A stretch of 64,000 nucleotides of DNA from positions 9,786,715 to 9,850,714 of the forward strand of contig CM108483.1 of the NCBI GenBank assembly GCA_048537945.1, given 5' to 3'. Shown here piece by piece: positions 1,919 to 25,915 of the stretch (positions are counted from its first letter, which is position 1; the number at the start of each line of letters is the position of its first letter). Both the position numbers and the translations under genes were made by a program. The notes below the pieces were generated by a model. The model worked only from the letters and a program-made list of their open reading frames with translations. It made no database searches and was not told the DNA's origin. The DNA is from Mnemiopsis leidyi. Lineage: Eukaryota.

Positions 1919-2243
1919 ATAATGAATCAGCCGACCATCCCAATATAATGCATCTTAACGGGTAGGTGTATGGGAGTAAAACGAGCAAGGTGCTATAGCA
2001 AGGTGCTATAGCAAGGTGCTATATAGCAATGTGCTATAGAATCTTCCCGCTGTTAGGGGAAATAATAATGCATAGATTCAGCTAATAATGAATCAGCCGA
2101 CCATCCCAATATAATGCATCTTAACGGGTAGGTGTATGGGAGTAAAACGAGCAAGGTGCTATAGCAAGGTGCTATAGCAAGGTGCTATATAGCAATGTGC
2201 TATAGAATCTTCCCGCTGTTAGGGGAAATAATAATGCATAGAT
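1919..2243. repeat. Two tandem copies of a ~166 bp unit, each with an internal 3x caaggtgctatag motif
   Basis: The 1919-2075 block recurs almost identically at 2085-2243, read directly from the sequence. Confidence 0.85.
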
Positions 2244-4252: not shown

Positions 4253-4541
4253 TTAGCTTCGCAGCATCGGAATAAACATGTCAGGGGTAGCGGCTAACTC
4301 ACCCTCGTCCTCGTTCTTTACTCCTTCCTCCTCCCCAGCCCTCCTTCCCTCCTCCTCTTCCTCGTCCCCCCTGAGAGTAGTATCACTGTCGTAGTCATCA
4401 AGACCTCCTCCCTCACTGTCCTCGTCCAGTTCGTCCAACTCACTGTCCGCCCTGACACTCATACCACTGGCTGAACTGACAGGACGACTAAGTGTTCTGA
4501 CTCGGTCTTGTAGAGTCATCACCTCGCTTGTCAGACTCTCG
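4253..4541 (-). CDS. Putative terminal coding exon of an unidentified gene (coiled-coil-like start, acidic D/E-rich tail, stop at 4253)
   Basis: 89-codon open frame on the minus strand in AT-rich DNA, preceded by a polypyrimidine tract and AG acceptor (tgtgtttgacag|AACGAG), and ending in a stop. No family recognised. Confidence 0.3.
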
Positions 4542-7734: not shown

Positions 7735-8925
7735 CGGTGTGGAGCGTGACATGGAAACATGGATCAGTGAAGTGTGGAGGAGGGTGACAGGGAAACCTGG
7801 ATCAGAGAAGTGTGGAGGAGGGTGACAGGGAAACCTGGATCAGACAAGTGTGGAGGAGAGTGACAGGGAAACCTGGATCAGAGAAGTGTGGAGGAGGGTG
7901 ACAAGGAAACCTGGATCAGAGAAGTGTGGAGGAGGGTGACAGGGAAACCTGGATCAGAGAAGTGTGGAGGAGGGTGACAAGGAAACCTGGATCAGAGAAG
8001 TGTGGAGGAGGGTGACAAGGAAACCTGGATCAGAGAAGCGTGGAGGAGGGTGACAGGGAAACCTGGATCAGAGAAGTGTGGAGGAGGGCGACAGGGAAAC
8101 CTGGATCAGAGAAGTGTGGAGGAGGGTGATAGGGAAACCTGGATCAGAGAAGTGTTGAGGAGGATGACAGGGAAACCTGGATCAGAGAAGTGTGGAGGAG
8201 GGTGACAGGGCAACCTGGATCAGAGAAGTGTGGAGGAGGGTGACAGGGAAACCTGGATCAGAGAAGTGTGGAGGAGGGTAAAAGGGAAACCTGGATCAGA
8301 GAAGTGTGGAGGAAGGTGACAGGGAAACCTGGATCAGAGAAGTGTGGAGGAGGGTGACAGGGAAACCTGGATCAGAGAAGTGTGGAGGAGGGTGACAGGG
8401 AAACCTGGATCAGAGAAGTGTGGAGGAGGGTGACAGGGAAACCTGGATCAGAGATGTGTGGAGGAGGGTGACAGGGAAACCTGGATCAGAGAAGTGTGGA
8501 TGAGGGTGACAGGGAAACCTGGATCAGAGAAGTGTGGAGGAGGGTGATAGGGAAACCTGGATCAGAGATGCGTGGAGGAGGGTGACAGGGAAACCTGGAT
8601 CAGAGAAGTGTGGAGGAGGGTGAAAGAGAAACCTGGATCAGAAAAGTGTGGAGGAGGGTGACAGGGAAACCTGGATCAGAGAAGTGTGGAGGAGGGTGAC
8701 ATGGAAACCTGGATCAGAGATGTGTGGAGGAGGGTGACAGGGAAACCTGGATCAGAGAAGTGTGGAGGAGGGTGAAAGAGAAACCTGGATCAGAGAAGTG
8801 TGGAGGAGGGTGACAGGGAAACCTGGATCAGAGAAGTGTGGAGGGGGGTGACAGGGAAACCTGGATCAGAGAAGTGTGGAGGAGGGTGACAGGGAAACCT
8901 GGATCAGAGAAGTGTGGAGGAGGGA
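7735..8925. repeat. Minisatellite of ~30 copies of a 39 bp unit gtgacagggaaacctggatcagagaagtgtggaggaggg
   Basis: Near-perfect tandem iteration visible directly, with point variants among copies. It lies within a SHANK intron. Confidence 0.95.
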
Positions 8926-9399
8926 CAGGAATCAGAGGACGGAGCTTCAGTTACTTGGAGTTCAGACGGATTGCCTAATTTCTCTAACTATCTTACAGTC
9001 GGCCCCAACAATAGCATCTCGTCACTACGGAACACAGCCCCGATTGGGAAGGTAGATGATGTAATTAAACTTAACAGTTGCACTCTAACTAACATATCTG
9101 TTTTATGTGGGACCCATCGTGCCGTGCGGCTACACAAACGATACAAAACGAAGATTAAGGATACAAAATGTCAAGCAAAAATTGAATCGAATGACGCGAG
9201 TTTAACTAACCCCATCTTGAACGACTGAACGTTATTTGATTATTTGAATTAAGGGCTTCTAGTTCAGATTTATGGGCAGTGTTGTCTGTTAGCTCGATTT
9301 TAAAATCAGAGCAAAATTGTTGCTGCAAGCTCCTTGATTCTCTCCGACGTCACAATCTCAGACGTCACAATCTCACTACAATTAAACACAACATCATAC

Positions 9400-9544
9400 C
9401 TGCTTGTTCAGGTTTGAAGTTGGTGATGTCGTCCATTATAACAAAGTTGGAGGTCAGGGCTGCTACTTCGTACGCGGTCTGTCCGGCTCTGTTCCGTATC
9501 GTCTTGTCGATACCACGGTACAGTAACTGTCGGGCACAGTGCAC
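9400..9544 (-). CDS. SHANK: SHANK-like gene, ankyrin-repeat exon (VHCARQLLYRGIDKTIRNRAGQTAYEVAALTSNFVIMDDITNFKPEQA)
   Basis: Minus-strand translation aligns with the end of the SHANK N-terminal ANK domain (vertebrate ...ARVLLFRGGNKELKNYNSQTPFQVAIIAGNFELAEYIKNHKETD). AG acceptor at 9545-9546 and GTATGA donor at 9399. Confidence 0.7.
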
Positions 9545-9884
9545 CTAATAGCCAGAGTAGTTGATATTAAAGAGTTGGGCAAAGAGAGTAAGGGGTTTTG
9601 AAATGAATAGTAGTACGTGATCGACCGATAACCGTGTTTGTAATTTTGTCCCGGTCGAGAAGCTGGTGGATCTCTGGTTAAAGTGATTGTTTTTGGGCAG
9701 GTATTTCCAGCAATGGCAGGAAACATTTTGGATCACGTTTTTGGATAAAAGAAGTCACGAATAAGCGTAATTGTTCGAGACGAGAGAGACGGATAGGAAG
9801 ATAATCTATTATCTGAGTTAAGAATTATGGATATTTAAGAACTGAGGTCAAATCTTTAGTTTTATGCTCTAAAAGAGTACTAAC

Positions 9885-10001
9885 CTTGTTGAAGCTCGCA
9901 CTGATGTGAAGAGCTGAGTTTCCCGCCGAAGTTCTAGCGTTTATTTCCGACCCGTAGAGAATCAGCAGTTCCACTAGGTCTGTCTTTCCTCGCTTACAAG
10001 C
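9885..10001 (-). CDS. SHANK: SHANK-like gene, ankyrin-repeat exon (ACKRGKTDLVELLILYGSEINARTSAGNSALHISASFNK)
   Basis: In-frame 39-codon exon matching the SHANK stretch ACRYGHVQHLEHLLFYGADMSAQNASGNTALHICALYNQ. cccag acceptor and GTTAGT donor; phase 0 on both sides. Confidence 0.75.
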
Positions 10002-10248
10002 CTGGGTGAATATATATTTTTAGTGTTCAGTTGGAAGGAGGTAGTGCTTGGAAATCGTCCTTTATGAAGTATGTTTAAAGGATGGAATTATAAAGAAGAT
10101 TGTCCAATTACCCGAATTCACAGTAACGTATTTATAATCTATTCACTTGCCGTCTCTGTTATATATTCTTATATTGAGATGGGAAAAGATTAATCTGAAA
10201 CGTAGTTACACACACGCTATAGGCAGGTCGAAGAGAAACTACACAAAC

Positions 10249-10419
10249 CTGATGTAACTCATTCCACTGTCCAGTGTTGTCTACAATGTTCAGATCGCAC
10301 TTCTCCTTCAACAGAATCTCAGCTGTAAGAGTGCTGTTCCCGTCACAGATCGCATTGTAGAGAGGTGTCATGCCCTTCAAATCTCTGGAGTTAACAGACG
10401 CTCCAACATCAAGGAGCAC
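10249..10419 (-). CDS. SHANK: SHANK-like gene, ankyrin-repeat exon (VLLDVGASVNSRDLKGMTPLYNAICDGNSTLTAEILLKEKCDLNIVDNTGQWNELHQ)
   Basis: 57 codons matching SHANK LLELGASPDYKDSYGLTPLYHTAIVGG...CCKDENGWHEIHQ. tttcag acceptor and GTTTGT donor; lies within track ORF 10159-10440 (-). Confidence 0.8.
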
Positions 10420-11402
10420 CTGAAACGTTATATAAGGCACTTCATGTGGAACTTTGAGTATTTATGTGTTAGTACTTAACTCTTGAAGTATACTTAGATT
10501 ATCACGCGTTTGATGGGTGTCGAGTCTGAATTCGATTTACATTTAAAATTATACCACGTGTTTACACGTTACTCAGTAGACCGCAGTTTTCAATTAAATT
10601 GGTGTGATATAAAATAAAAAGGGAATCTTAGGAACCATTTAGTTGCTGCGGGCGGATACATTTTGAAAATCTTAATTTGCTTGTCTTCCCGCCCAGCAAC
10701 TTTCATGTTGGAATCTATTAAACTTATACTGTGCGCGCGTAAAAACGCGCGTGAAAGTAAGCTCTGTGTAAGATTTTCAAAACAAGAAGATTTATGCGTC
10801 TTACAGTTATGCGTGAAGACCCAGTAGTAGTATCATTCGTATCATCATCACATTATTGCGGAAAGCAAATCAAATAAAATCTGTTGGCGTGTAAATACCA
10901 GCATGCAAGAACGAACAGATTTTTACGCTACACTTATTTGGAATGTATCGGCTCCGACATTTTCAAGGAATGTGCGTGAAAGCAAGAGCAAGCACACTTG
11001 CTTTCAGATTGTTTTAAAATTTTAAAGTAAAATCAAGAACTTAATTTCTAATGTTTTAATACTTTCAACACTACTATTATACAAATAATTTGAGGTTTGG
11101 CAACATGATCTGGCGGGCCAAACTATAGCAATAGCCGGAGAAGAACTCTCAATCTTGGGTACGTATTTGCGTCGATTGCCCAAAAGGGAGCTGCTTTTCG
11201 CTGTCATTGTTTTACACATTCAGCTTTGAAGAATTTACGCTGTTTGTGTGTTTGAAGAATTTGTTCAAGACTACTCAATTTCAGTTGGTACCAGCTTTCT
11301 GTGAATACCTGTTACCCACTGTAAGCTATTTTGTTTTCTGGATTCTGCCGCTAAGTTTTTCAGATACGACTGGATCCTATCTCGTGTCTGGGTACTGCGA
11401 CC

Positions 11403-12827
11403 ATGGAATTGGAAGAGGAGTTAGCAAAACAGAGGGTAGTCATTGGGGGGCTTCTCAATGTAGCAAGTGCAGATGCTAAGAGAGTACTCGCTGCATACAG
11501 TCCTGAGAAGGGTTACAGTTACAATCTAACAAAGCTTCTAAAATGTAACTCGAGGCAATTAGAAGCTTGTGCTAGTTTAGTCGGTCTGAAGGCTAGGTCT
11601 GCCGACGGAAGTGATAAACTGTATCAGAAGCTTGAGATCTTAGCAGATAGGATTATCCTGAAGATAGAGTCACTGTTCGAGGCAGAATGCAGTGACTGCA
11701 GAGCTGTGTACTGCAACACACTCGAGTCTGAGCCGCTATTCACGTGCAGGCTCTGTTTACTTGGCAGTCATAACTGTGAGGAGATCAAGAGAAAGGCGGA
11801 AAACGTTGGCCAGCTGTATCCATCTGGTTTTGTCTGGCTGTGTAACGTTTGTCTCGGGAAAAACGACTTGGTTAGCATGCTTTCTCCCACCAACACTCTG
11901 AAAAAACAACCTCTAAAGAAGAACTCCAAACCTACAGCTAGTGTGGAAAAACTTAACACTATCAAGGAAAAGGATTCGGAGGAAGAGAAAGCCGAAGAAG
12001 AAGAAGAGATAAAGGAGGAGGAAGACAAGGTGGACGAGAGACAGAGCCCTAATAGGGTTCGTGATGATAGAGAGAGCGAAAAGTCTGGCAGGGAGAGTCA
12101 GAAAGAGAAGAACCGTGAGATATGCGAGCTGTACAAGAGGAGAGCTTGCCCCCATGGGCTTAAGGGAAAAACTCTACATGACGGAAAGGTGTGTGATAAA
12201 AGTCACCCTAAGAAATGCTTCAAATTCTGTGATTTCGGTTCGAGACATAAAAATGGATGCAAGAGAGGCAAGAAATGTCAGTATTGGCACCCGAGACTTT
12301 GCAGGTTCTCGCTGAAAAATCAGATATGTGAAGTTGAAAGCTGCACCTTCCAACACCTAGTTTTTGACAAAAAAGAGAGGCGTGTGGGCAACAAGGAGCC
12401 GACAGGAGAAGAAAGGGGAGAAAGGGAGAGTGATGTGACAGGAAGGCCTGCAACAACCCGCAATCTGGATCGTGCACCCAAGTTCAGTATTGCTTCATCA
12501 GGCTACAACGGCAGCTACACCCCTTACCCCCCAACTATAGGGAAGCCTGCACCCTCCAAAAAGCAGACGGAAGAGGAGGACATTTCTTTTTTATTCAAGC
12601 TGATCGAGAATCTTCGGGTGGGATTCCAAGAGCAGCTAGAAGGGTTGAGAACAGAGATTGTGAAGGGGCGAGACACGGGGAATCAACTGGCCAATCAGCA
12701 GAGCCAGCAGGAATTCAGGGATCCAAACATGCAGGTGTGTCAGAGAGGGATGCAGATGAACCACCCATTCCCGTACCTGATGCCACACCCGTGGTACAAC
12801 CAGAATTATCCTCCTTTGTCCTCCTAA
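11403..12827 (+). CDS. LINE ORF1: gag-like nucleic-acid-binding protein with Cys-rich zinc-finger/knuckle clusters and an acidic/basic low-complexity linker
   Basis: 474 aa ORF with Cys clusters (CSDCRAVYCN...CRLCLLGSHNCEE...CNVCLGK; CPHGLKGK...CDKSHPKKCFKFCDFGSRHKNGCKRGKKCQYWHPRLC) lying immediately upstream of and overlapping ORF2, the usual LINE layout. Confidence 0.75.
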   Translation: MELEEELAKQRVVIGGLLNVASADAKRVLAAYSPEKGYSYNLTKLLKCNSRQLEACASLVGLKARSADGSDKLYQKLEILADRIILKIESLFEAECSDCRAVYCNTLESEPLFTCRLCLLGSHNCEEIKRKAENVGQLYPSGFVWLCNVCLGKNDLVSMLSPTNTLKKQPLKKNSKPTASVEKLNTIKEKDSEEEKAEEEEEIKEEEDKVDERQSPNRVRDDRESEKSGRESQKEKNREICELYKRRACPHGLKGKTLHDGKVCDKSHPKKCFKFCDFGSRHKNGCKRGKKCQYWHPRLCRFSLKNQICEVESCTFQHLVFDKKERRVGNKEPTGEERGERESDVTGRPATTRNLDRAPKFSIASSGYNGSYTPYPPTIGKPAPSKKQTEEEDISFLFKLIENLRVGFQEQLEGLRTEIVKGRDTGNQLANQQSQQEFRDPNMQVCQRGMQMNHPFPYLMPHPWYNQNYPPLSS

Positions 12828-13945
12828 ACGGACAAAGTGTGTCTCCTGCAGCAACAAGCACATCAAGGTGGAAACTCCCATACCTGGAAAAGACCATAAA
12901 GGAGTTTAGCTGTCCACCACCTTTTATGGCCATCACAGAGACGTGGCTGAAGGGCTATATTAGTGACGCGCAGGTGACAATTGAAGGATATCAGAGTTAC
13001 AGATCAGATAGAGAGGATAGAGTAGGAGGAGGCTGCTTGCTCTACATTCATGACAGCCTTGTAGTCACGGACACAGAGCACTACGAGGACAAGCACCATA
13101 ACATGATCATGTGTTATGTTAGGTCCTGCAATACAGTAATTGCAACTATATACAGACCACCTGGACCCGAGGCACTAGGCTGGAAAGCACTACTTGATAG
13201 GTTACAGATAAAAATTGATGGCTTATCTGAGGGTGGCACAACTCCCGACCTTTACATAGTAGGCGATTTTAACTACCCAGAAATGTACTTGGACCTTGGA
13301 TACTCAGAGCATAGCAGTAGGCCTGGACAAGGTAACGAGTTACAAGAGTTTGTCGATCGAAACTTCCTAACTCAGGTTGTTCAGAAGCCAACAAGAGAAG
13401 GGAATACTCTAGACCTGGTATTTACGAATGTGTCCAGGTACGTTATGGAAGTCGAAGTGAGTGACACCATTCTTTCAGACCACAGGCTAGTGGAGGTACG
13501 GTTGGGGTTCAATATGGTCGGCAATGCCATCGCAAAAGAAACTTCACTGGATCCGTACTCATTTAGAGCAGTTGACTATCACAAAGCCAACTTTGAGGTA
13601 ATGAATCTACAGTTATCCGAAGTGAACTGGGAGGAACTGTGGGAGCTGTGTGACAATAATCTGGGGGAGTTCTTGGAACTTATGCGGCTAACAGTCCTGC
13701 AAGTTACTCTCCTGCACTCGCCCCCAAAGGAGGACAAAGCTGCTGCTATCTCAAGGAGGAGAAGGGCTAACAGGCATATCAACGTCATGAAACGGAAAAG
13801 AAGAAAGCTTAATGCCAGGATAAGGGCGTTAGAATCAGCAAATCCAGGCTCAGGGAGACTGCGGGATCTTAAGTCTGAAGTGGCACTCCTTTGCTACGCC
13901 ATACAAGAGGGTACCCTGAATAAACTGGACAAGAGGGAGAAACGG
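12737..13945 (+). CDS. LINE ORF2 5' part: apurinic-endonuclease-like (EEP family) domain, truncated by a transposon insertion whose first 3 nt (tag) create the stop
   Basis: Typical LINE APE motifs (ITETWL, LLYIHD, YRPPG, IVGDFN, LDLVFTN, SDHRLVEV). The ORF runs into TAG at 13946-13948, which is the first triplet of the inserted element. Confidence 0.85.
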
Positions 13946-16900
13946 TAGGGTGCGCCCTTTTTTCTAAACCTATATGGGCTCTACCCTTATCTGATAGAGC
14001 TCAACGAGCTGAAAACGAGGATGCCTTCCTTTTTGAAATTGGACAACGGGAAAGACTACCCCTGGTCGTTTAAAAGTTACGACGATCTAGGATGTACATG
14101 TTGCGCACGCGCGAACTCGGACGCTTGCATATGCTGCACCTGTCATAACTCACGCGCATTTAGCGCGGCTTCATGGTAACTTCCGTATACACAATGATTA
14201 TCTAGTCACTGACGTAATGCAGTGCTGGCGACTTTGACAAAAGAAAGCAAAGAGGACATACTCCTGACTGAAATCGACCGAGAAATCGTTTAAAGCTATC
14301 GTCGAGGCTCTAAAATGTGACACTAACTCGATAAATGATAAATGATCGGGATTGTAGCTATATAAAAGGTCACAATTCCTGGAATTATTACAGGAGACAA
14401 ACCTTTGAAACGTAAAACAGATCAAGTGAAACACAATCCGGCGAGGATCAAGTAGCAAGCAAGTTACTAGTACTAAAATAAACAAAACCTATATTGCCAA
14501 GTTAGTACTAGTAGTCACAAAATATTTTAGTTACTCAATCGACAGTCGCTCGGTTGCATTATCATAGGAAAGCGAAAGAAACCGTTTACTTTAAACATGC
14601 ACAGCCACAAGCAGTAAGCACACGTTTAACTGAAGTATCGTTCAAGTCAACCCGAATACACAGAGGATATCTCTTATATACCACACTCAGTAGGGGAATG
14701 AAGCGATCTCATTGGCTCCTAGTACGGCTAGCTACGTCACTAGAAGTAGAGACCTAGAGTAAGGTAAAAGTTACGTCACATATCTGCCTGCCGGAGTGAG
14801 GAAAATCAAACGATCTGATTGGCACACAGCTGCAGTCACGTGACTAGATTGAGTGGGGCAAAAGAAACGAACCATCTCTGCTTGCAATTTCCTCACTCAA
14901 ATGATGATGAATCATGATGTGAGTTGTACCGATCTTGAGTGAGGGAAACCAAGCAATCTCATTGGCTAGAAGCAGCAGTCACGTGACCTGGTAGAGTGGG
15001 GAAAAAGAAACGAACCATGTCTGCTTGCAATTTCCTCACTTAAATGATGATGTGACCCGTATCGATCTTGAGTGAGGGAAACCAAGCGATCTCATTGGCT
15101 CATGGCTGCCGTCACGTGACTTGGTAGAGTGGGGCAAAAGATACGTTACACCTTTGCTTGCAACTTTCCCACTCAGATCATGGCGATGCGAACAGTACCG
15201 ATTAGGAGTGAAACGAGACTGAGGCCAGAGTAAGGCAAATCATACGTCACTACAAGAACTTGACGGTCCCCAGAGTGTAATCTTTCGCTCGTTGCCCGTC
15301 AAAAATATGGACTCTGATATGCGAATATCGGCAGCTAGATTAAGATTGTGACCAATCCTTCTCTAGTTAACTTCGCGGCCAGAAAACGTTCCGCTACTAT
15401 ACCAGGGAAAATACTCGAGCTGCGGGGTGCCGTGTCAGATTTTGTCCGCCTGATTAGGTCTGGCGCATTGTCAGGCCTGCTATAAGAAATTTTTCATCGA
15501 TGCATGATTTACAATATAATCATACTTAATTTTTTTAGTGCTAGTCAATCAAACTGAAACATTAATCTAACGTCGTATACGAGTGTTGATAAAACTATAT
15601 CCGTCCGAACGTTAAACGGTTGTGTAGTAATACTACTACTAGTACAAGTACAACTAAGGGTTGCTTCAGTGTTAGGACATAGGTTCAAGGATCGACCGGG
15701 ATCGCTTTTTCAGCCGGGACCGGGACCGGGATCGGTAAAAATGGCCGGGACCGGGATTTTGCCGGGACCGGGATTGTAACCGGGACCGGGACTGTAACCG
15801 GGACCGGGATTGCGACCGGGATCCCGGTCGGTCCCTGCAAAGGTTATAGTTCGATTTAAAATAGAGGGGGTGGATTTAAATGACAAGTCGATTAAGCTGG
15901 TACAAAGGAGACGTCCATGTTAATGTAACTGATTGGCTTTACGATAGACTACAGCAATTAAGGTGCACTATTAGTATTTTTCATATTGGGCGGATTACAT
16001 TTTTCGGAAAGCAGGGGCTGACTCACGCCTCAATATCTGATCGCCATACTTGACACTACACCCGATCCGTGCTGTTTACATTATCTTGTTAAATCTTAAT
16101 TTGTCACCGTGTCGCAGTAGACTGTGAGGAAGCCTTCTTCAGTTGACATCTTCAGCAGGCTTTTTTCGACCCTCATTATCAGAAGCGAATTATTCTCCAA
16201 GAATTTAAAATGTCGGGATGGTGCACGTGCTGTACAACCGCAAGCTCCAATTCCAGGGCATTTTAACTGATCGGTAATATAACGGGTATTTTAACTTTAA
16301 GCTGTTGTCTCACGCTCTGCAAAGTGATTGCATTGTTTTAGGAGAACAATCTTAGAATTAGATAGGGATGTATTATTATTTGCAAGGTCAAGCTACATAG
16401 TGATATATTGTAGATAAACTTAAATATTTGATCATTTCTGTTGAGTCTGTCCGCTCTTGGTCCTAGTAAAAAGTTGCGTTACTGTCGGCTGATAAGGAAG
16501 CGAAGCTAAAAATCTAAACAAAATCTGGATACTGTCAAACCAATTGTGAATTGGTGTTAGTTTTACGTTGTAGGTTGAGAACCTTCTGCCGCGGCCATCA
16601 CGGGCTCTCGCGCATTTCTGGCCTAGCGACACAAATTTTAATTTTTAAGAAATTCTAGACGCTCATCGCCCGTTAAGTTTTACTTTAAAGCTAAACGCTA
16701 CTGGCCAGATCAAAGCGATGTATCATTATATAATGGTCACTCGCAAGACTAGCTTTATAAGTCGATTAGATCGCTTATTTCCCCGGAGCGGCAGCCCCAC
16801 TAAAAAGTTATTTTGAATCTGTAAATGTGCACCGGTAACAGTAACACAGTAAAGGATCCCCAATCAGCAATGGAGGTGACGTGTCTTCAGCTTTAGCGGT

Positions 16901-18151
16901 TACCGTTCGAGTACAACTACATAGTAGTGACGTGTGATTCGCCTAACTCTAGCCTCAATCACGTGACCAGCTGCAAGCCAAAGAGATCGCTTGGTTTCCT
17001 TCACTCCTAATCGGTGCAGGTCGCATCGTTGTGATCTGAGTGGGGGAGTTGCCTGGTGCAAGCAAAGTTGAAAGTTGTGACGTATCCTTTGCCCCACTCT
17101 ACCAAGTCACGTGACGGCAGCTATGAGCCAATGAGATCGCTTGACTTCCCTCACTCAAGATCGGTACAGCTCATATCATCATTTGAGTGAGGAAATTGCA
17201 AGCAGACATGGTTCGGTTCTTTTTCCAGACTCTACCAGGTCACGTGACTGCAGCTGCGAGCCAATGAGAAGCTTGGTTTCCCTCACTCCAACAGGTAGAT
17301 ATGAGACGTAACTTTTACCTTACTGTAGGTCTCTAGTGACGCAGCCGGCCTGAGGAGCCAATCAGATCGCTTGATTCCCCTACTGAGTGTGGTATATAAG
17401 AGCTTTACTTGTTGTTTTCGGGTTGATTTGATCGATACTTCCAGTTACACGTGTGCTTACTGCTTGCGGCTGTGCATATTTAACAATCGGTTTCTTTCGC
17501 TTCGCTATAATAATGCTACCGAGCTACTGTAGATTGAGTGACTGAAATATTTAGCGACTACTAAGTTTGCAACATAGGTAAGCCTCACGTTGTGGCCCCG
17601 TTAGTCCTACTGTCATCCCGGTTCTAGTATGAGTACAAGATGCTTGCTTGCCACTTAGTCCACGCTTATCGCCGGATCATTCGATCTGTATTACGCTTGA
17701 AAGGTTTGTCTCTTGTAATAATTCCATCAATTGTGACCTTTGATATAACAACAATCCCGATCATTTATCGAGTTAGTGTCACATTTTAGAGCCTCGACGA
17801 TAGCTTTAAACGATTTCTCGGTCGATTTTAGTCAGGAGTATGTCCTCTTTGCTCTCTTTTGTCAAAGTCGCCAGCACTGCATTACGTCAGAGAATAGATA
17901 ATCATTGTGTATACGGAAGTTACCATGAACCCGCGCTGAATGCGCGTGAGTTATGACAGGTGCAGCATGCAAGCGTCCGAGTTCGCGCGTGCGCAACATG
18001 TACATCCTAGATCGTCGTAACTTTTAAACGACCAGGGGTAGTCTTTCCCGTTGTCCAATTTCAAAAAGGAAGGCATCCTCGTTTTCAGCTCGTTGAGCTC
18101 TATCAGATAAGGGTAGAGCCCATATAGGTTTAGAAAAAAGGGCGCACCCTA
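13946..18151. mobile_element. Non-autonomous foldback-type DNA transposon. It has perfect terminal inverted repeats (tagggtgcgccctttttt...), ~1.3 kb inverted arms (13946-~15245 and ~16880-18151) with ~127 bp tandem subrepeats, a ~1.6 kb unique core without ORFs, and a 9 bp TSD gagaaacgg (13937-13945 / 18152-18160)
   Basis: The reverse complement of 13946-14440 matches 17700-18151 nearly base for base. The subrepeats (gagtgagggaaaccaagc...tcacgtgac...) occur 3x in each arm in mirrored orientation. Identical 9-mers flank the element. Removing the element plus one TSD restores the ORF2 frame. Confidence 0.85.
15700..15840. repeat. (gaccggga)-type microsatellite with palindromic character, inside the core of the foldback element
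   Basis: Iterated cgggaccgggat motifs ending in the palindrome gaccgggatcccggtc. Confidence 0.8.
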
Positions 18152-18160
18152 GAGAAACGG

Positions 18161-20050
18161 GCAGTAGAGACTATAAAGGACAACCCAAAATACTTCTTTT
18201 CATATGCTAAACGTCTACAAAAGACAAAGTCCACCATACCTGTCCTTAGAGATGAAAATGGCAGGCTGGTAGAGGACCCTGCGATTAAAGCTGAACTGTT
18301 GCAAACCCAATATCAAAAGGTTTTCAGCAACCCAAAGGATGCAAACCTTGAAGAGTGTATGGGAAATCCGGGTTTACCACAGGGATCAAATCAAGGTTTT
18401 GGTGAACTCAGTTTTACAATAGAAGACATCTTAGAAGCCCTGGAGGAATTAGATCCGTACTCGGCAGCACCTGACGGCGATATTCCTGCAAAGATTCTGA
18501 AGGTCTGTAGATACCAGCTAGCGGGCCCACTCAAATTGCTATGGTACGAGTCATTCAGCAGGGGGTGCATACCGGAGGAGCTTAAGACACAGTATATCAC
18601 TCCTATTTACAAAAAGGGTGATAGGACGGACCCTGCAAACTACAGGCCAGTGTCACTGACCTCTCATGTTATGAAGACCTTTGAGAGGGTGATGAGGAAG
18701 TACCTCGTCAAGTATCTTGAGGATTCAGAGTTCCTGCATAACAACCAACATGGGTTCAGAAAGAAAAGGAGCTGTATGACCCAACTCCTCAGCCATATCG
18801 ATCAGATTTACCAGTCGCTCAACAACAACGACGAAGTCGATGTGATCTATCTAGACTTTGCTAAGGCTTTCGATAAAGTCGATCACTCGATCCTACTTGC
18901 TAAATTAGCTCGTTATGGCATTAAAGGTAAAGCACTCAAGTGGCTTAATGAGTTTCTGTGTGGAAGGAAGCAGACAGTAGTTGTTGAAGGCACGAGGTCA
19001 TCTCTACAACCGGTTGTGAGTGGTGTACCTCAAGGGACAGTACTGGGTCCTATTCTTTTTGTGCTCTACATAAACGATCTGTTGAGTACAATTAAACACA
19101 GCTGCGGGTTTAGCTTCGCCGATGATACTAAACTCATCGGAGGTATTCAAGGGCTATCCAGTGTGAACCACCTACAAGATGACCTGAACTTAGTGATAGA
19201 GTGGTCAAGGAGTAATAATATGGAGCTGCACGAGCAGAAGTTTGAAGTGGTCAGCTACAACCTCAACACGTCGAAGACTCTAAGAGAGCTCCCGTTATAC
19301 CCTGAAAATGTTGAGTATAGCACCCCAAAAGGACATGTTATAACACCACAGGAAATTGTCTGTGACCTGGGTGTCAATGTTAGCAGCAGCAGGGGGTGGG
19401 GACCACACATCGAGAAGACAGTTCAGGGAGCTAGGAAGATGGCGGCATGGGTATTGAGCGCGTTCAGAGATCGGTCACCCACTGTGATGCTCACATTATA
19501 TAAGAGTATGGTCCGGTCCAAACTTGAATACTGCTGCCCAGTCTGGAATCCTGTGAAGATTACAGAGATTCAGAGGCTAGAGAACGTACAGAGATCGTTC
19601 ACAAGGAAGATACTTGGCTGCAGTGAGCTTCAATACTGGGACAGGCTAAAGAAGCTCAAGTTAATGTCACTTCAAAGAAGAAGAGAGCGTTACTGCATCA
19701 TACACGTTTGGAAGATCTTAAACGAAGAGGCTCCGAATGACATTGGCTTCACATTCAACTGTCACCAGCGACTGGGGTTGAAGGCGGTTATACCACCGGT
19801 GAACAAGAACTCCCAACTGTCGGTGAGATCTGACTACGACAGTACATTCAGGGTTAGAGCAGCTCAGCTCTTCAACATCCTGCCACCAGAGCTCCGTGCT
19901 ACTACCTCACTGGATGGCTTTAAGGCAGGACTTGGAAGATTCATGGACCAGTGCCCAGACACCCCACCGATCCCGGGTTACACTCCATCGAACGACAACT
20001 CGCTACTGAGCTGGAGGAGGACGCACACGATGCAGTTGTCCTGTGCATGA
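18161..20050 (+). CDS. LINE ORF2 3' part: reverse transcriptase domain plus a C-terminal domain, in frame with 12737-13945 once the nested insertion is removed
   Basis: RT motifs 1-7 (PDGDIPAKILK, YRPVSLTSHVMKTFERV, QHGFRKKRSCMTQL, IYLDFAKAFDKVDH, SGVPQGTVLGPILF, FADDTKLIG). The join ...gagaaacgg|gcagtagag reads EKRAVET, and the excised length 4215 equals 3x1405. Confidence 0.9.
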   Translation, partial: AVETIKDNPKYFFSYAKRLQKTKSTIPVLRDENGRLVEDPAIKAELLQTQYQKVFSNPKDANLEECMGNPGLPQGSNQGFGELSFTIEDILEALEELDPYSAAPDGDIPAKILKVCRYQLAGPLKLLWYESFSRGCIPEELKTQYITPIYKKGDRTDPANYRPVSLTSHVMKTFERVMRKYLVKYLEDSEFLHNNQHGFRKKRSCMTQLLSHIDQIYQSLNNNDEVDVIYLDFAKAFDKVDHSILLAKLARYGIKGKALKWLNEFLCGRKQTVVVEGTRSSLQPVVSGVPQGTVLGPILFVLYINDLLSTIKHSCGFSFADDTKLIGGIQGLSSVNHLQDDLNLVIEWSRSNNMELHEQKFEVVSYNLNTSKTLRELPLYPENVEYSTPKGHVITPQEIVCDLGVNVSSSRGWGPHIEKTVQGARKMAAWVLSAFRDRSPTVMLTLYKSMVRSKLEYCCPVWNPVKITEIQRLENVQRSFTRKILGCSELQYWDRLKKLKLMSLQRRRERYCIIHVWKILNEEAPNDIGFTFNCHQRLGLKAVIPPVNKNSQLSVRSDYDSTFRVRAAQLFNILPPELRATTSLDGFKAGLGRFMDQCPDTPPIPGYTPSNDNSLLSWRRTHTMQLSCA

Positions 20051-21222
20051 ACTGCCGAACCATCCAAAACGTACCAAACGTACGTACGTATGTTGAGCTA
20101 ATGATGAGATGTTGAATTTTTAATCCCATTTGTAATTAAATCCAGTCTAATAACAACTGACTCCGAAGCCTTCATTACGCGTACACTGCCTAAAAGCCAT
20201 CACAGCACAGCTTGTACCCTCCTAATAAACTTTTAATTTAAACATTCGCTCCCTTGCCCCAGGTAAAATGAACGTCAACCATTTAGCCATTTAAGGGTGG
20301 GCCAATTAACGAATGCAACAAACTGTGTTGGAGAGTTCTGCATTAACTGTCCAATTTAACAGCCGAAATTTATTTCGATTTTCTAAAAGAAGGTTAAACC
20401 CGATTTGAGATTTCCACAAATCACATAACACTAGGCTCTGACACTACTTTCAAGTGTTTTTTTGTAAGTTTCAATTAGTTTCACAATATTCGCGTGTTTA
20501 TTATGACAAGCATTGCTCATAACTAAGCATTAAGCAACAGGTAGTTTTGGGTGTAAGATAAACAAATCTAAAACTCGGCGCTTTATCACAAAGAAGTCTC
20601 TAGCAATTGTAATGGCAAACACTAAAGAGGGCGTGTGGCTACTTTAACATCTACACAAAGCATTAAAAACAATGAAAAGTGTAGACAGTATGGCTAACAA
20701 TATAATAATGAATATTGGAGGTTTGTCCCCACCCCTAGTTAGACACATTGGAGACAAGTTAAATTGTCAAGAGTGAAGTGTAAAGGGACAGTGAGGGTAA
20801 ATAGCGGTACAGTCATCATATGATTAGATAGTCACATACTTGAACTGCAATCTTCATTCTTCTACACACATTCCGACATAAAATTGCGATCGTTTATTCA
20901 TGATGCGATGTAGAATGAAGGTAGCTGTGGTATGTGTGTGTGTGTGTGTCGTTCAGATTGGGACATTCTTGCTGCAATTTATCTTGTGACACTTGCGTTA
21001 TTTGACTAATGAAAGGGCTATACCAACTACGATAATCGCTGAATAATTAGATAATGTCACGAGAAGAGCCCAAAAAACCTGATTGAAATAGGGTATCTAG
21101 TTTCTAGTATGAAGGTATCTAAATTGTTAGTTAGTACATCAGATTGATATAGGTATCTAAGTAGGTAGGTATCTCCTTATACACAACTATGTCCGCACTC
21201 TATAACACGAGCACAGACATAC

Positions 21223-21374
21223 CTGCATGGACTCATGTTTTCCATTAATTGAGGCGTGGTGAAGAGCAGTGTATCCGTTCCTGTCCCGAAACTCCAAGAA
21301 AGCCCCGTATCGACACAGCAACATTATCATTCTCTTAGGTTCCTTCCCCAACACGGCTTTCGTCAACGGAGTGT
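21223..21374 (-). CDS. SHANK: SHANK-like gene, ankyrin-repeat exon (..TPLTKAVLGKEPKRMIMLLCRYGAFLEFRDRNGYTALHHASINGKHESMQ)
   Basis: Aligns with SHANK ETPLTLAAQLDDSVEVIKALKNGGAHLDFRAKDGMTALHKAARARNQVALKT. tattcag acceptor and GTATGT donor; the phase is compatible with the neighbouring exons. Confidence 0.8.
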
Positions 21375-21902
21375 CTGAATAGAGGGGTAGTATAATTAGG
21401 TTTTTGTAGAGAGTAGCAACCTAGTCTTTCGGGGATCTATCGCCTGATATCTCCTGGATTGCTGAGATTTCCACCCCGTACTGATTAAATTAATATTATC
21501 TGATAGTCTGTAGTCACGAAATTCAGTTGACTTAACTATAAGTTGGGTAAATATTTTCAGAGTGGCATGTGTGCGTGAGTGCAGGGGCGAAGTTTTAGCT
21601 AGGTCGACACGGAATGAAAATACCTAATTATGATCATATTTTTGGCATGAGTCTAAAATGTATTAGGATTAGCCGGCAGTTGCGATAAAATAAAATGCAC
21701 TAGGACGAAATAATCGTTTGATAGGATTAACTGCGCGGGATAAGGCAACACGATAACAAAAGGCAATACGTTTTTGATTATTCAGCGGTAAAACAGGTTT
21801 TTCTCTTTCGAAGAGTTACCGATAGATAATTAAATAAAACCAAGAGTTACCGAATAGATAATTAAATAAAACCAAGAAAAATGAAAGGGTAATTGATCTT
21901 AC

Positions 21903-22011
21903 GTCCAGATGCTCGATGAATGAAATTGGGATCCAGTCCTCGCTCCAAGAATTTCAAACATTTTTCCAAATTCCCGTCCGACACATGTTCAAAAAACCTC
22001 TGTTGAGAGTC
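21903..22011 (-). CDS. SHANK: SHANK-like gene, exon encoding the start of the ANK domain (DSQQRFFEHVSDGNLEKCLKFLERGLDPNFIHRASG)
   Basis: Aligns with SHANK DKRVFRAFLDAGNLDELQRLLDNGLDPNFHDPDSG. ttttcag acceptor and GTAAGA donor. Confidence 0.8.
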
Positions 22012-25000
22012 CTGAAAATTTCACGTCAGTAGCGCCTTTAAAACAATGTCAGATCTTTGACGGTGTGAGGCTACTATGTTAAAAGAAAGGGATTCGAACG
22101 AACGATCTAGCAATTAATTAAATACCAACCCCGAAAAATAGTGTAATACCTTAAATAATTTTTTGTGTACCTAAAGGCCTAGACTATGACTTAATGTATA
22201 ATTTTAAAACTTTAACAAGTCTGAAAACGATTTCCTAGAGCTTGTCGAAAGCCCTATAAGAGCGAATAAAAGATATCACTTATCAAGTATTTTCATGTGA
22301 GCACTTATGTGATGGCAAGGTACTATATAACATATTTAACCCGGTATTTTAACCCCAAGCTGTGCATAGTTCTAGTGTTAAGCAGTGGGCGATAACTGAT
22401 CGGATTTTTGGAGCGACAAAACTGCCAACTCTCACACCACGTCAAAAGAACGTCAGCTTGCTATTCACGGAATGTGGAGACACAGTCCGACGTGATTTTG
22501 TGACGTGTTTTCAGTTTTAGTGTACGTTTAGAAAACAGCAAGGTTACTTCCAGCAGTTTCTTTACACTTATTGTCTTCCACACTGTTACCGCGATTTCCT
22601 AGTAAGGGTCAATAAGTTGCCCTAAATTTCAACAACTTCAATGGGCGAACCTTACAAAATAGATCGAAGGCATTTGGAGTTTGGTTGGCTTCCTGAATTC
22701 ATTATGTGTCTGTACGGCTACCTGATACACCCCAAAAAGGACATAATGTCAATGTTATCTGGTTTATCAGCAATGGAATTTCGTCCATTTTGACGTTGTC
22801 AAACCATAAACTGGTGTGTATTTTAACTATCTCAACGAACATTCCTATGTTCAGACACAGTTTCGTGGGACAACATTCCGTACTGCAACACACAGCCAGC
22901 TTTTCATAACATCTAATAACAATAGGCATCAAAACAGTACTGGCGAAATGAACATTTAATTTTTCGTAAGCTTAATTTTCAATCAAGCGGTGGTTCTCGA
23001 CAACGCTGCAAACATTTTACATTGTCAATTTGAGCATTTTTGAGCATTTTTAGGCATTTTGGCTCATGGCAAAGCACGACATTTCAACACACTATTACGC
23101 TATTTCAATCTCCTGCACTCAACATCATTTTTTTTCAGTTCACAATCCTAGATCACTTAGACCTACAACAATGTTTTCAGAAATCACTCTTAAATACTTC
23201 AATACCAATCCCTTCAATAAATTATTCAGACTAGATTATGTGGCAACCATTACGTCATCCTCAGATCGAGCTCCACTTAGTGAGATGTTAGAAGGTTGTA
23301 CCTACAAGAATTTTAGAGTCTAGACGCAACAAGAAGGTAGTGTATGTGTGTGTTAGTGCCAAGTACTGAGCACGACTGTGTCACAGCGGCTCTAGATTTT
23401 CAGTCGTGGCATTTAGACAGTTATTTGACAAGTAATGTGAGGATGTTTTAGAGGGAGGAAATTCTTTAAGATATTTAGTTTTCACAAGTCTATCTAAATA
23501 TCTACGTGACGAAACCCGTTCCCAAGTAGCTCAATCGACCGATGGAATAGCGAGTTTGGTGGTTTACAGTACAACGAATTAAATCGCATTATCTAAGCCA
23601 ACTTTAATCAGTCCTGGTGCCTCTCTAGTTATTGCAGTTTCTCTGTAATGCGACTTTACAATCAGAGGAACCTCTGATAACAACTACTGTCCTAAAAGCT
23701 CGCCCAAAATAAAGAAGATCACATCACCAACTCACATGATTCGCGTAGTCAGTATAGTTCGCCGACAGGCGGCGCAGCATTTTCAGGCCCCGCAGCGACA
23801 TTCCTCAGCTACAAAACACACTCTGTGCTAGCACGCCGTTGTTTCAATCAGCTAACTACCACCGTGAAGTCTGACTCCGAACATGATTATTACTTAACTC
23901 GGTGGAGCTTGGGAGTCGTAGTCTCGGTTAGATCGTTGTAAGTCAAGTAGTCTGAGCAACAGTAGTGTCTTAGTGGTCGCTCCTCAACAAGGAAATATTT
24001 CTTAGCAATTCAATAAAAATGTCCAACATTTAACTGTTAGATAAAGTCTATAATATGGTTAACTGTCGCGGTCACGGTACGTGGGTCTTCCAATAGTCAG
24101 GTAAATATTTCCATTGCTCGCTGCATTCTCTACAACATGCTAAACTATCCCTGCATTGTGTCACTCTATTGACTTTTATTACAACAAATTAGCAGCGCAG
24201 GTGCGAAAACGGCAGGATATTTACAAGGCAAGCTGTGATAATCACCAATCACTTGAAAGATGAAGATGCCGTGATCGCTATCTCGAAAGCAGTGCAAGTG
24301 GACAAAACTTGACAACACAGTCTATAATATTTCGTATGCAAGCTATGAGAGAGGCTAAAGTCGATTGCGCATACCGGAGAAAAGGTTAAGCATACGAATT
24401 AGGTACACGACGGTGGTTGTTATAGGCAGAGCACGACAACTCGTCCAAAAATAGAAAATTTCACACAAAGTACTTGGAGGAAAGGGTGAAGTGAGCTCAC
24501 CGAGGAAAACTTATCGAGCCGGCCATCTGAGTGTAAACTCTAACGGTAAGATGGGAAGTGCTCCTGGCTAGAGAGATTTGCCTTAGCTGTAAGGTAAGCT
24601 TAGCAAGGACGGATAGAGCGGCCAATAAAGTGCTAATATATTTTCATGTTGATCCATCAACACTTTGTCGCAACACACACAACACAGCATGAGCGGCCTG
24701 GTCTCTCCTTGCCAACTATTTTGAGATTTTACTTTTTCTTTTTTGGCTTCCAATTCTTAGGTTCACTCTCTTCTGGTTCTTCGGGAATGGAGGTAAAGTG
24801 GAGAAAACCAACATGCTTTTCATTTCGAGTATTTGGTGGCAATGGCGTTTTTATGTGCTACGGGTGTACTAAATTTTTTAGCAAAGCAAATTGAACGTAT
24901 ATTTTTGCATAAAGCTGCATAAATTAGAACCTCTAAATTTTTGATGACAGTAAATCAACAAGTTTTTGGTCCACATGCAGTGCCAAAGCTTATTAATTAC

Positions 25001-25439: not shown

Positions 25440-25915
25440 CAATAAACTTCCCAGGCCGGTAACCAGTACCCAGGCCGGTAACCAGTACCCAGGCCGGTAA
25501 ACAGTACCCATGCCGGTAAACAGTACCCATGCCGGTAAACAGTACCCATGCCGGTAAACAGTACCCATGCCGGTAAACAGTACCCAGGCCGGTAAACAGT
25601 ACCCATGCCGGTAAACAGTACCCATGCCGGTAAACAGTACCCATGCCGGTAAACAGTACCCAGGCCGGTAAACAGTACCCATGCCGGTAAACAGTACCCA
25701 GGCCGGTAAACAGTACCCATGCCGGTAAACAGTACCCATGCCGGTAAACAGTACCCAGGCCGGTAAACAGTACCCAGGCCGGTAAACAGTACCCATGCCG
25801 GTAAACAGTACCCAGGCCGGTAAACAGTACCCAGGCCGGTAACCAGTACCCAGACCGGTAAACAGTACCCAGAGCGGTAACCAGTACCCATGCCGGTAAA
25901 CAGTACCAATAATCT
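25440..25915. repeat. Minisatellite of ~24 copies of a 20 bp unit ccggtaaacagtacccaggc (with cat/cag variants)
   Basis: Direct tandem iteration. The three overlapping minus-strand ORFs in the track here are repeat-translation artefacts. Confidence 0.95.

What the first reader, a model, noticed from the sequence alone, without database searches (positions are those of the whole stretch)
9400..22011. SHANK-family scaffold gene with a >10 kb intron that has accumulated a LINE, a nested foldback element and a 39 bp minisatellite
Five minus-strand exons translate to a contiguous ANK-repeat region collinear with the vertebrate SHANK N-terminal ANK domain, with correct phases and GT-AG boundaries. 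The intron between exons at 21223 and 10419 is ~10.8 kb and consists largely of the LINE (antisense to the gene) plus its nested insertion. SPN-domain exons (upstream, above 22011) and SH3/PDZ exons (downstream, below 9400) were not located and may lie outside the window or in the AT-rich flanks.
Basis: partly seen in the sequence, partly recalled or inferred. Interest (0 to 1): 0.55.

Follow-up and report, generated by a model that had tools for sequence, protein, structure and literature searches.

The report
Comb-jelly Shank gene with intronic LINE
This is the front half of a real, conserved Shank (synapse-scaffold) gene, most likely from a comb jelly. One of its introns was recently enlarged about six-fold by a jumping gene that was then hit by a second jumping gene, which is an ordinary event.

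Summary
The five minus-strand exons are real. They have AG/GT borders and chain into a 231-aa stop-free ankyrin region. That region aligns in one pass to SHANK3 residues 117-339. A related species (locus L001) has the same five exons with identical lengths and 94% identical protein, with 103 synonymous and 14 non-synonymous codon differences.

With these added, SHANK3 is the best match in the whole PDB, so the SPN then ankyrin order that marks Shank is present.

The 10,803-nt intron is 83% one insertion. It is a 4.8-kb LINE, antisense to the gene and 99.0-99.8% identical to other copies. A 4,206-nt foldback element with a 9-bp target duplication splits it. The relative's intron is 2,541 nt, so the insertion is lineage-specific and young.

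The minisatellite claim is wrong. Its period is 38 nt, not 39, and it lies at 7741-8924, in the next intron and outside the stated range.

No SH3, PDZ or SAM exons were found downstream. Exon E does not chain to the next conserved exons, which look like a separate gene.

LINE relatives place the window in a ctenophore, probably Mnemiopsis. Ctenophore Shank is already reported, so this is ordinary.

The parts
34305..34544 (-). First coding exon S1: ATG plus 80 codons, phase 0, donor GTTTGA. A Ser/Arg-rich leader is followed by the first SPN strand (..IQLHIKIPEKKVE).
   Evidence: Sequence read. There is an in-frame stop 11 codons upstream of the ATG. Residues 69-80 align to SHANK3 residues 10-21.
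33755..33826 (-). SPN exon S1b: 24 codons (CVITVDMNAKVSDIKLQIIQSLCS), acceptor tttcag, donor GTAAGT, phase 0 to 0.
   Evidence: It aligns to SHANK3 residues 22-45 within one continuous stretch.
33366..33491 (-). SPN exon S2: 42 codons (DLEENFNFGLYLPPKQKRLGKYMSEDRCIREYRLSGLPPIVF), strong polypyrimidine acceptor, donor GTGAGT.
   Evidence: lead from a remembered sequence. Tested: the only significant matches in the whole PDB are SHANK3 chains at SPN residues 47-79, E = 5.9e-5.
28395..28442 (-). Tentative SPN/linker exon S3: 16 codons (LNYKLRSLYQEMSRNL), phase 0 to 0. Weakly supported.
   Evidence: Adding it raises the SHANK3 score from 78.8 to 85.3 bits and makes the alignment continuous. A mere spacer might do the same. 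No conservation test was possible.
24570..24985 (.). Conserved non-coding block, 71% identical over 432 nt to the relative and closed in all frames. It lies about 0.8-1.2 kb upstream of the alternative first exon and is a candidate internal promoter or enhancer.
23736..23801 (-). Conserved alternative first exon: ATG plus 22 codons (MSLRGLKMLRRLSANYTDYANH), donor GTGAGT, phase 0. It fits exon A and would give an isoform without the SPN domain.
   Evidence: It has the same length, ATG and GT donor in the relative, with 16/22 aa identical. Conservation starts at the ATG.
21903..22011 (-). ANK exon A (109 nt).
21223..21374 (-). ANK exon B (152 nt).
10420..21222 (-). Intron B-C, 10,803 nt. The orthologous intron in the relative is 2,541 nt.
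11080..20090 (+). LINE (non-LTR retrotransposon), antisense to the gene, about 4,796 nt without the nested element. ORF1 is 11403-12827. ORF2 is 12737-13945 plus 18161-20050. A short ACGT-repeat lies at the 3' end. The true ends are at or beyond these coordinates.
   Evidence: Pfam endonuclease and RT. Three independent copies are 99.0-99.8% identical over 11080-13945 and 18152-20090. ORF2 reads through 1,032 codons once the nested element and one target copy are removed.
13946..18151 (.). Nested foldback-type element, 4,206 nt. It has inverted arms of about 1.2 kb that contain 133-143-nt subrepeats, termini TAGGGTGCGCCC, no long ORF, and a 9-bp target duplication GAGAAACGG at 13937-13945 and 18152-18160.
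   Evidence: Uninterrupted LINE copies carry GAGAAACGG once.
10249..10419 (-). ANK exon C (171 nt).
9885..10001 (-). ANK exon D (117 nt).
9400..9544 (-). ANK exon E (145 nt), encoding the last repeat. It ends in phase 1 at a GTATG donor.
7741..8924 (.). 38-nt minisatellite, 31 copies, 95% matches. It lies in the sequence downstream of exon E, not in the 10.8-kb intron.

Best explanation
The window carries the 5' half of a Shank orthologue on the minus strand, most likely from a ctenophore (Mnemiopsis leidyi or a close relative).

Exons at 34.5-33.4 kb encode a Ser/Arg-rich leader and the Shank-specific SPN domain, which has a ubiquitin/Ras-association-like fold. Five exons at 22.0-9.4 kb encode the ankyrin-repeat region (ARR) that follows it. 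In vertebrate Shank3 the SPN packs against the ARR, and both recruit partners to the scaffold. That role is inferred here, not shown. A conserved ATG-initiated exon at 23801-23736 probably gives an SPN-less isoform from an internal promoter.

After this lineage split from the relative sampled in L001, a full-length, coding-competent LINE retrotransposed into the intron between ARR exons B and C, in antisense orientation. A non-autonomous foldback DNA transposon then inserted into that LINE's ORF2, between the endonuclease and RT. It duplicated 9 bp and killed that copy. Together these events enlarged the intron from about 1.8 kb to 10.8 kb.

The host gene's coding sequence is intact and under purifying selection. 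The insertions are best read as tolerated intronic passengers with no shown function.
For: Gene:
- The exons chain in frame with AG/GT borders.
- SHANK3 aligns in one collinear stretch, query 4-227 to residues 117-339, 165 bits, E = 2.5e-47. The best single stretch for ankyrin-1 is 60.5 bits.
- Exon E alone ranks SHANK3 first, at 1.7e-8 against 1.5e-4 for the next hit.
- SPN exon S2 has significant matches only to SHANK3 in the PDB.
- The assembled N-terminus makes SHANK3 the top PDB hit, in one stretch from query 69-240 to residues 10-191. The SPN-only chain 7c7i matches 69-152 to 10-93 at E = 6e-8.
- Pfam FERM_f0 matches residues 69-138, below threshold.

Selection:
- The orthologue in L001 has identical exon lengths and AG/GT at every border.
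- 217/231 aa are identical.
- Codon differences are 103 synonymous against 14 non-synonymous.
- Differences by codon position are 25/7/103.

Transposable elements:
- Pfam finds an endonuclease and an RT.
- Three uninterrupted copies are 99.0-99.8% identical and carry the 9-bp target once.
- ORF2 is restored by excising the foldback.
- The relative's intron is 2,541 nt, against 10,803 nt here.

Taxon:
- Every hit that carries an organism name is a ctenophore.
- The cluster at 90% identity or more holds at least 12 Mnemiopsis leidyi proteins.
Against: - No SH3, PDZ or SAM exon was detected downstream in the window, or in 10 kb downstream in the relative.
- Exon E ends in phase 1. The next conserved exons (5537-5406 and 4543-4303) start with their own ATG in phase 0, so they do not chain to it. 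The full Shank architecture is therefore unproven here.
- The exon for the last SPN strand and the linker is only tentatively placed.
- Pfam's SPN-type model scores below its cut-off, 18.3 against 26.9 bits.
- Two searches of 5.8 billion proteins returned no annotated Shank for this peptide, even though Mnemiopsis and Bolinopsis proteins are in that collection.
- The LINE's exact ends and target duplication were not determined.
- The taxon rests on transposon relatives only.
Confidence: 0.85

Rival explanations
1. The locus is a stand-alone SPN-ARR gene, that is, a truncated or split Shank. The transcript would end soon after exon E, either by read-through to a nearby stop or by splicing to exon F out of frame. 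The SH3-PDZ-SAM part would be encoded elsewhere or be absent.
For: - No SH3/PDZ/SAM was found downstream in the window or in the relative.
- The next conserved exons begin with a conserved ATG. In the relative they can be joined in frame to a terminal Cys-rich/His-Asp-Lys-rich exon, which looks like an independent gene on the same strand only 3.9 kb away.
- Read-through of exon E meets a stop after 11 codons in the window and after 9 in the relative.
- Splicing from exon E to exon F also stops early in both species (derived).
Against: - Conservation stops within 5 nt of the exon E donor, exactly as at the four internal exon borders. If exon E were terminal, a constrained coding tail would be expected to stay conserved.
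- Both species keep GTATG at that position.
- Shank genes elsewhere have very long introns and nested promoters (general knowledge).
- No poly(A) signal lies within 500 nt in the window.
Confidence: 0.15
2. It is a generic ankyrin-repeat gene, and the Shank resemblance is only repeat consensus.
For: By summed score, giant ankyrins and designed ANK proteins outrank SHANK3 for the ARR peptide. A search with exon C alone returned only giant multi-ANK proteins.
Against: Those scores are sums over many overlapping stretches. In a single collinear pass SHANK3 scores 165 bits, against about 60 for the others. The non-repeat SPN exons match essentially only SHANK3; the sole other hit is a chance-level E = 1.9. 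They lie upstream in the right order.
Confidence: 0.02
3. The LINE/foldback insertion is old or functional, for example an exapted antisense promoter or a regulatory element of the Shank gene.
For: No direct evidence. It sits inside a conserved gene, and an antisense LINE could in principle supply a promoter.
Against: It is absent from the orthologous intron of the relative. It is 99.0-99.8% identical to other copies, with intact ORF1 and an ORF2 broken only by the foldback. That is the signature of a recent, unselected insertion.
Confidence: 0.04

Closest known systems
Vertebrate SHANK3 N-terminal SPN-ARR module (PDB 5G4X, 6KYH, 6KYK; SPN alone 7C7I)
   Same: The domain order SPN, linker, ARR is the same. 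One continuous alignment covers SHANK3 residues 10-191, and another covers 117-339. The last ANK repeat and its C-terminal cap are recognisably Shank-type.
   Different: - There is a 68-residue Ser/Arg-rich leader before the SPN.
- The linker is about 6-8 residues shorter, if the tentative exon is right.
- In the HMMER alignment, the Ras-recognising residues R12 and K22 of SHANK3 (PMC11393128) correspond to His71 and Cys81 here.
- SH3, PDZ and SAM were not seen.
Shank of non-bilaterian animals and choanoflagellates (Alie and Manuel 2010, PMC2824662)
   Same: [quoted passage not shown] Here the region is split over at least three exons, all with phase-0 borders.
   Different: The published intron positions could not be compared, because the supplementary alignment was not read. 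Ctenophore Shank is listed as present in PMC9282427, but I saw no gene structure for it.
APE-type two-ORF LINE (non-LTR retrotransposon)
   Same: It has an ORF1, and an ORF2 with an N-terminal apurinic-type endonuclease and an RT. It has many near-identical genomic copies and a short simple-repeat 3' end in place of a long poly(A).
   Different: The clade (CR1, L2, Jockey and so on) was not determined. ORF1 has no Pfam match. No target-site duplication could be recognised.
Foldback (FB) and Mutator-like non-autonomous DNA transposons
   Same: It has very long terminal inverted repeats built partly from tandem subrepeats, no transposase ORF, and a 9-bp target duplication. FB elements and MULEs make 9-bp duplications; this point is from my own knowledge.
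   Different: With no transposase present, the superfamily cannot be assigned. The TAGGG termini would also fit hAT-like ends, but hAT elements make 8-bp duplications (my own knowledge).

Membership tests
Shank/ProSAP scaffold proteins | Shank-specific N-terminal SPN domain | tested here: met
   Exon S2 alone has significant matches only to SHANK3 SPN in the whole PDB (E = 5.9e-5). S1+S1b+S2 match the SPN-only chain 7c7i over residues 10-93 at E = 6e-8. Pfam FERM_f0 matches at the same place but below its cut-off, 18.3 against 26.9 bits. The last strand is only tentatively located.
Shank/ProSAP scaffold proteins | Ankyrin-repeat region collinear with the Shank ARR, directly downstream of the SPN | tested here: met
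   One stretch aligns query 4-227 to SHANK3 117-339 at 165 bits. The SPN-to-ARR alignment is continuous. The exons lie in this order on one strand.
Shank/ProSAP scaffold proteins | SH3 domain after the ARR | tested here: inconclusive
   None was detected by Pfam on all minus-strand open segments of 16 aa or more from 7740 to about 2000, and of 18 aa or more from 2300 to 1. None was detected in about 5 kb downstream of exon F in the relative. Split domains can escape this method, and the gene may run off the window.
Shank/ProSAP scaffold proteins | PDZ domain | tested here: inconclusive
   Same searches, nothing found. A lead search with remembered SHANK3 SH3-PDZ sequence also found nothing.
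Shank/ProSAP scaffold proteins | C-terminal SAM domain | tested here: inconclusive
   Not detected in the window. It would be expected far downstream.
Shank/ProSAP scaffold proteins | Ras/Rap-binding basic residues of the SPN (R12, K22). This is a functional feature, not a family-defining one. | tested here: not met
   In the HMMER alignment to 5g4x, R12 corresponds to His71 and K22 to Cys81. The roles of these residues are taken from PMC11393128. The alignment is at about 30% identity, so a one-residue shift cannot be excluded.
LINE (non-LTR retrotransposon) | ORF2 with an endonuclease and a reverse transcriptase | tested here: met
   Pfam Exo_endo_phos_2 and Exo_endo_phos on 12737-13948, and RVT_1 (110.6 bits) on 18299-20050. 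The frame is continuous after excision of the foldback.
LINE (non-LTR retrotransposon) | Dispersed near-identical copies | tested here: met
   Three contigs from different samples are 99.0-99.8% identical. There are thousands of related RT proteins, and a 90% cluster holds at least 12 Mnemiopsis leidyi entries.
LINE (non-LTR retrotransposon) | Target-site duplication and defined termini | tested here: inconclusive
   Only chance-level 9-10-mers are shared by the flanks. The ends are bounded by where the other copies stop matching, at 11080 and 20090.
Foldback / TIR DNA transposon (non-autonomous) | Terminal inverted repeats flanked by a target-site duplication, with an empty site known | tested here: met
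   The outer 394 nt of the arms are 97-100% complementary, and the arms extend to about 1.2 kb. GAGAAACGG flanks both ends. Uninterrupted LINE copies show the empty site with a single GAGAAACGG.
Foldback / TIR DNA transposon (non-autonomous) | A transposase that would assign a superfamily | tested here: not met
   No ORF longer than about 95 aa lies inside 13946-18151. The element is non-autonomous, and its superfamily is left open.

The most novel reading that the evidence does not exclude
In ctenophores the Shank N-terminal module may be expressed as a stand-alone SPN-ARR protein, with no SH3-PDZ-SAM in the same gene. Its SPN may lack the two basic residues that vertebrate SHANK3 uses to bind active Ras/Rap. 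That would mean the ctenophore postsynaptic 'master scaffold' is organised differently from that of other animals. A conserved internal promoter would add an SPN-less form.
Probability: 0.12. Interest if true: 0.5.

Novelty: new member of a known kind. Interest (0 to 1): 0.22.

Why it matters
It matters mostly for annotation. The work gives an exon-level model of the 5' half of a ctenophore Shank gene, including SPN exons and a conserved alternative first exon. Two large protein searches returned no annotated counterpart for it. It also documents a clean, datable chain of nested transposition events (LINE, then foldback) in an intron of a gene under strong constraint.

Shank is already reported in ctenophores (PMC9282427), and intronic transposon insertions are commonplace. 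Neither the gene nor the insertion would surprise a specialist.

One point has wider interest: whether this Shank continues into SH3-PDZ-SAM, and whether its SPN still binds Ras-family GTPases. That bears on how similar ctenophore synaptic scaffolds are to those of other animals. It needs transcript data.

Tried and rejected
1. An exhaustive representative search with exon C was swamped by giant multi-ANK proteins, because summed scores over 10-36 stretches dominate. It gave nothing useful. A spliced peptide was not accepted as input.
2. Two word-indexed searches of 5.8 billion proteins, one with the ARR peptide and one with a composite of all exons, returned bacterial and plant ANK proteins and no Shank. 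The only near hit was an ORF containing exon E from the relative's contig.
3. Pfam on concatenated open segments, meant to find the missing SPN exon and the SH3/PDZ/SAM exons, gave nothing.
4. Motif and alignment ranking of AG...GT candidate exons against remembered vertebrate sequences did not find S1 or S3. S1 and S1b were found by reading the open segments.
5. A search for LINE target-site duplications gave only chance-level repeats.
6. A look-up of the intronless CSTF1 protein, intended to get a chromosome context with gene models, returned only short Logan contigs.
7. A search for the sample accession numbers in papers found nothing. Ryan et al. 2013 is not held in the library.
8. I considered whether exon E joins the ATG exon at 5537 through an internal acceptor. 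I rejected this because the possible acceptors differ between the two species and lack a polypyrimidine tract.
9. Poly(A) signals after exon E were uninformative.
Full report
**Observation**

Every one has an AG acceptor preceded by a pyrimidine-rich tract and a GT donor. Joined together, they read as 231 codons without a stop, while the other two frames are full of stops. Pfam sees ankyrin repeats throughout. The intron between 21223 and 10419 is 10,803 nt.

**Is the gene real?**

A word-indexed protein search returned one near-identical ORF, P0001, which contains exon E. It comes from a 576-kb ENA contig. The 20.5 kb around it (L001) holds all five exons in the same order and orientation.

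- The exon lengths are identical.
- All ten splice dinucleotides are AG/GT.
- 217 of 231 residues are the same.
- Among codons that differ, 103 are synonymous and 14 non-synonymous.
- Differences fall 25/7/103 on codon positions 1/2/3.
- Nucleotide similarity stops within 9 nt of each exon border.

This is a functional gene under purifying selection, and the borders are independently supported.

**Is it Shank?**

Against all PDB sequences, the 231-aa peptide aligns to SHANK3 (5g4x, 6kyh, 6kyk) in one collinear stretch, query 4-227 to residues 117-339, at 165 bits and E = 2.5e-47. Ankyrin-1 and designed ANK proteins have higher totals only because many overlapping stretches are summed. The best single stretch of ankyrin-1 is 60.5 bits. 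Exon E alone ranks SHANK3 first, at 1.7e-8 against 1.5e-4 for the next hit.

The stronger test is the SPN domain, which is specific to Shank. A lead from a remembered SHANK3 sequence pointed to 33491-33366. That 42-codon exon matches SHANK3 chains at SPN residues 47-79 (E = 5.9e-5), and nothing else in the PDB scores better than E = 1.9.

Reading the open segments upstream then gave two more exons:

- A first coding exon at 34544-34305, with an ATG and 80 codons, ending ..IQLHIKIPEKKVE.
- A 24-codon exon at 33826-33755, CVITVDMNAKVSDIKLQIIQSLCS, with tttcag and GTAAGT borders.

With these joined to exons A and B, SHANK3 becomes the best hit in the PDB. The alignment is one continuous stretch from query 69-240 to residues 10-191. 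The SPN-only chain 7c7i matches residues 10-93 at E = 6e-8. Pfam's FERM_f0 model matches residues 69-138 but falls below its cut-off.

The literature describes this N-terminal region as unique to Shank and older than animals (PMC2824662). It also lists Shank among the synaptic proteins shared by ctenophores, cnidarians and bilaterians (PMC9282427).

The exon for the last SPN strand and the linker is not securely placed. A 16-codon candidate at 28442-28395 adds 6.5 bits and makes the alignment continuous, but a neutral spacer might do the same.

**An extra exon**

A 66-nt exon at 23801-23736 reads MSLRGLKMLRRLSANYTDYANH and has a GTGAGT donor. Its ATG, length, donor and 16 of 22 residues are conserved in the relative, and the conservation starts at the ATG. 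Its phase fits exon A. It most likely starts an SPN-less isoform from an internal promoter. A 432-nt non-coding block, 71% identical to the relative, lies 0.8-1.2 kb upstream of it. Vertebrate SHANK genes are known to use several internal promoters; this is from my own knowledge.

**The intron**

The plus strand of the intron carries a LINE. ORF1 is 11403-12827, the endonuclease part is 12737-13948 and the RT part is 18299-20050. It is therefore antisense to the gene.

The two ORF2 halves are separated by a 4,206-nt element at 13946-18151. Its arms are inverted repeats of about 1.2 kb: the outer 394 nt are 97-100% complementary, and the inner parts are built from 133-143-nt subrepeats. It has no long ORF. 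GAGAAACGG flanks both of its ends, and removing the element and one copy of that 9-mer restores a 1,032-codon ORF2.

Three contigs from other samples carry the same LINE uninterrupted. They hold GAGAAACGG once and match the window at 99.0-99.8% over 11080-13945 and 18152-20090. So the nested insertion and its empty site are both documented.

LINE plus foldback make up 9,011 of 10,803 nt. The orthologous intron in the relative is 2,541 nt, and the other three ARR introns differ by less than 70 nt between the two species. The insertion is therefore specific to this lineage and young.

One point is not settled. The foldback may have inserted here, or in the source copy before retrotransposition. 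In-situ insertion is more likely, because a LINE with a broken ORF2 would need help in trans. This is inference.

No 39-bp minisatellite lies in this intron. The nearby minisatellite has a 38-nt period and 31 copies. It lies at 7741-8924, downstream of exon E and outside the finding's range.

**Downstream**

Exon E ends in phase 1. Conservation with the relative stops 5 nt past its GTATG donor. No conserved coding block lies between exon E and 5537.

The next conserved exons are 5537-5406 and 4543-4303. The first begins with a conserved ATG (MAVVV.. here, MAVVM.. in the relative) and is in phase 0, so exon E cannot join it in frame. The two exons do join each other. In the relative, the second can be joined in frame to a terminal Cys-rich/His-Asp-Lys-rich exon. 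This looks like a separate gene on the same strand.

Pfam scans of all open minus-strand segments downstream, in both the window and the relative, found no SH3, PDZ or SAM. Two readings remain open: Shank continues beyond the window, with this small gene nested in a long intron, or the gene is a stand-alone SPN-ARR gene. I favour the first at about 85:15.

**Source organism**

The LINE RT has thousands of relatives. Every hit that carries an organism name is from Bolinopsis microptera (78% identity) or Mnemiopsis leidyi. The cluster at 90% identity or more around the 99%-identical copy holds at least 12 M. leidyi proteins. The window is therefore most likely from M. leidyi or a very close relative, and L001 from another lobate ctenophore. 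This is inference from a transposon family, not a direct identification.

**Verdict**

The finding is real and its interpretation is essentially right. It is also ordinary: a known, ancient gene family in a phylum where it has already been reported, with a recent nested transposon insertion in an intron.

Two things are new here: the exon model of the SPN-ARR half, and the open question of what follows exon E. In the alignment, the Ras-recognising residues R12 and K22 of SHANK3 (PMC11393128) correspond to His and Cys. That is worth a note and no more at this level of identity.

Noticed in passing
window 5406-5537 and 4303-4543 (minus strand): Two conserved exons of what looks like a separate gene downstream of exon E. 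The first has an ATG start (MAVVVAGRKGSGVRRTDSYRDRK..), a predicted coiled-coil-like stretch, then a Ser-rich and very acidic region. No Pfam family matches; Cnn_1N scores 17 bits, below threshold. In the relative it can continue in frame into a Cys-rich, His/Asp/Lys-repeat terminal exon (L001 18814-19739).
   Followed up: partly
window 7741-8924: 38-nt minisatellite with 31 copies and 95% matches. It is strongly G-rich on the plus strand: the window 8001-9000 has GC 0.535 and GC skew +0.585.
   Followed up: partly
window 25450-25907: 19-nt minisatellite (CCCAGGCCGGTAAACAGTA) with 24 copies and 95% matches. It lies in the long intron between the SPN exons and the alternative first exon.
   Followed up: no
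window 10828-10934: A 107-nt intronic block, 82% identical to the relative (L001 8819-8926), at the same distance upstream of exon C (about 410-515 nt). It is closed in the reading frames. It may be a conserved intronic regulatory element, and it shows that the LINE's 5' end must lie above 10934.
   Followed up: no
window 24570-24985: A 432-nt non-coding block, 71% identical to the relative (L001 2118-2516), upstream of the conserved alternative first exon. It is a candidate internal promoter or enhancer of the Shank gene.
   Followed up: no
window 34305-33755 (protein residues 71 and 81 of the model): In the alignment to SHANK3, the two Ras/Rap-recognising SPN residues R12 and K22 correspond to His and Cys. 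Ras-family binding may not be conserved in this ctenophore SPN. The alignment is at about 30% identity.
   Followed up: partly
window 41888-43183 (plus strand): Intronless 431-aa WD40 gene with a CSTF1 dimerisation domain (cleavage stimulation factor 50 kDa subunit homologue). The exact protein is present in three Logan assemblies on 1.5-4 kb contigs. It bounds the Shank 5' region, unless it is nested in it.
   Followed up: partly
window 57373-58712 (plus strand): Exon-like ORFs of an ABC transporter nucleotide-binding domain, with the Walker A part at 57373-57813 and the signature/Walker B part at 57981-58301 (Pfam ABC_tran). This is another gene, running towards the window end.
   Followed up: partly
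window 59875-59946 (plus strand): tRNA-like sequence: Rfam tRNA at 45 bits, but ARAGORN reports an abnormal two-base anticodon. It may be a tRNA pseudogene or a tRNA-derived SINE head, inside the ABC transporter region.
   Followed up: no
window 47600-49100 (plus strand): A G-rich stretch (GC skew +0.16 to +0.20) whose ORFs read as degenerate Gly/Tyr/Thr-rich repeats (..GYYWGTTGVLQ..). This is probably another long minisatellite. It was not examined with TRF.
   Followed up: no
window 1912-2244: 166-nt unit repeated twice at 99% identity, containing 13-nt microrepeats (AGCAAGGTGCTAT).
   Followed up: no
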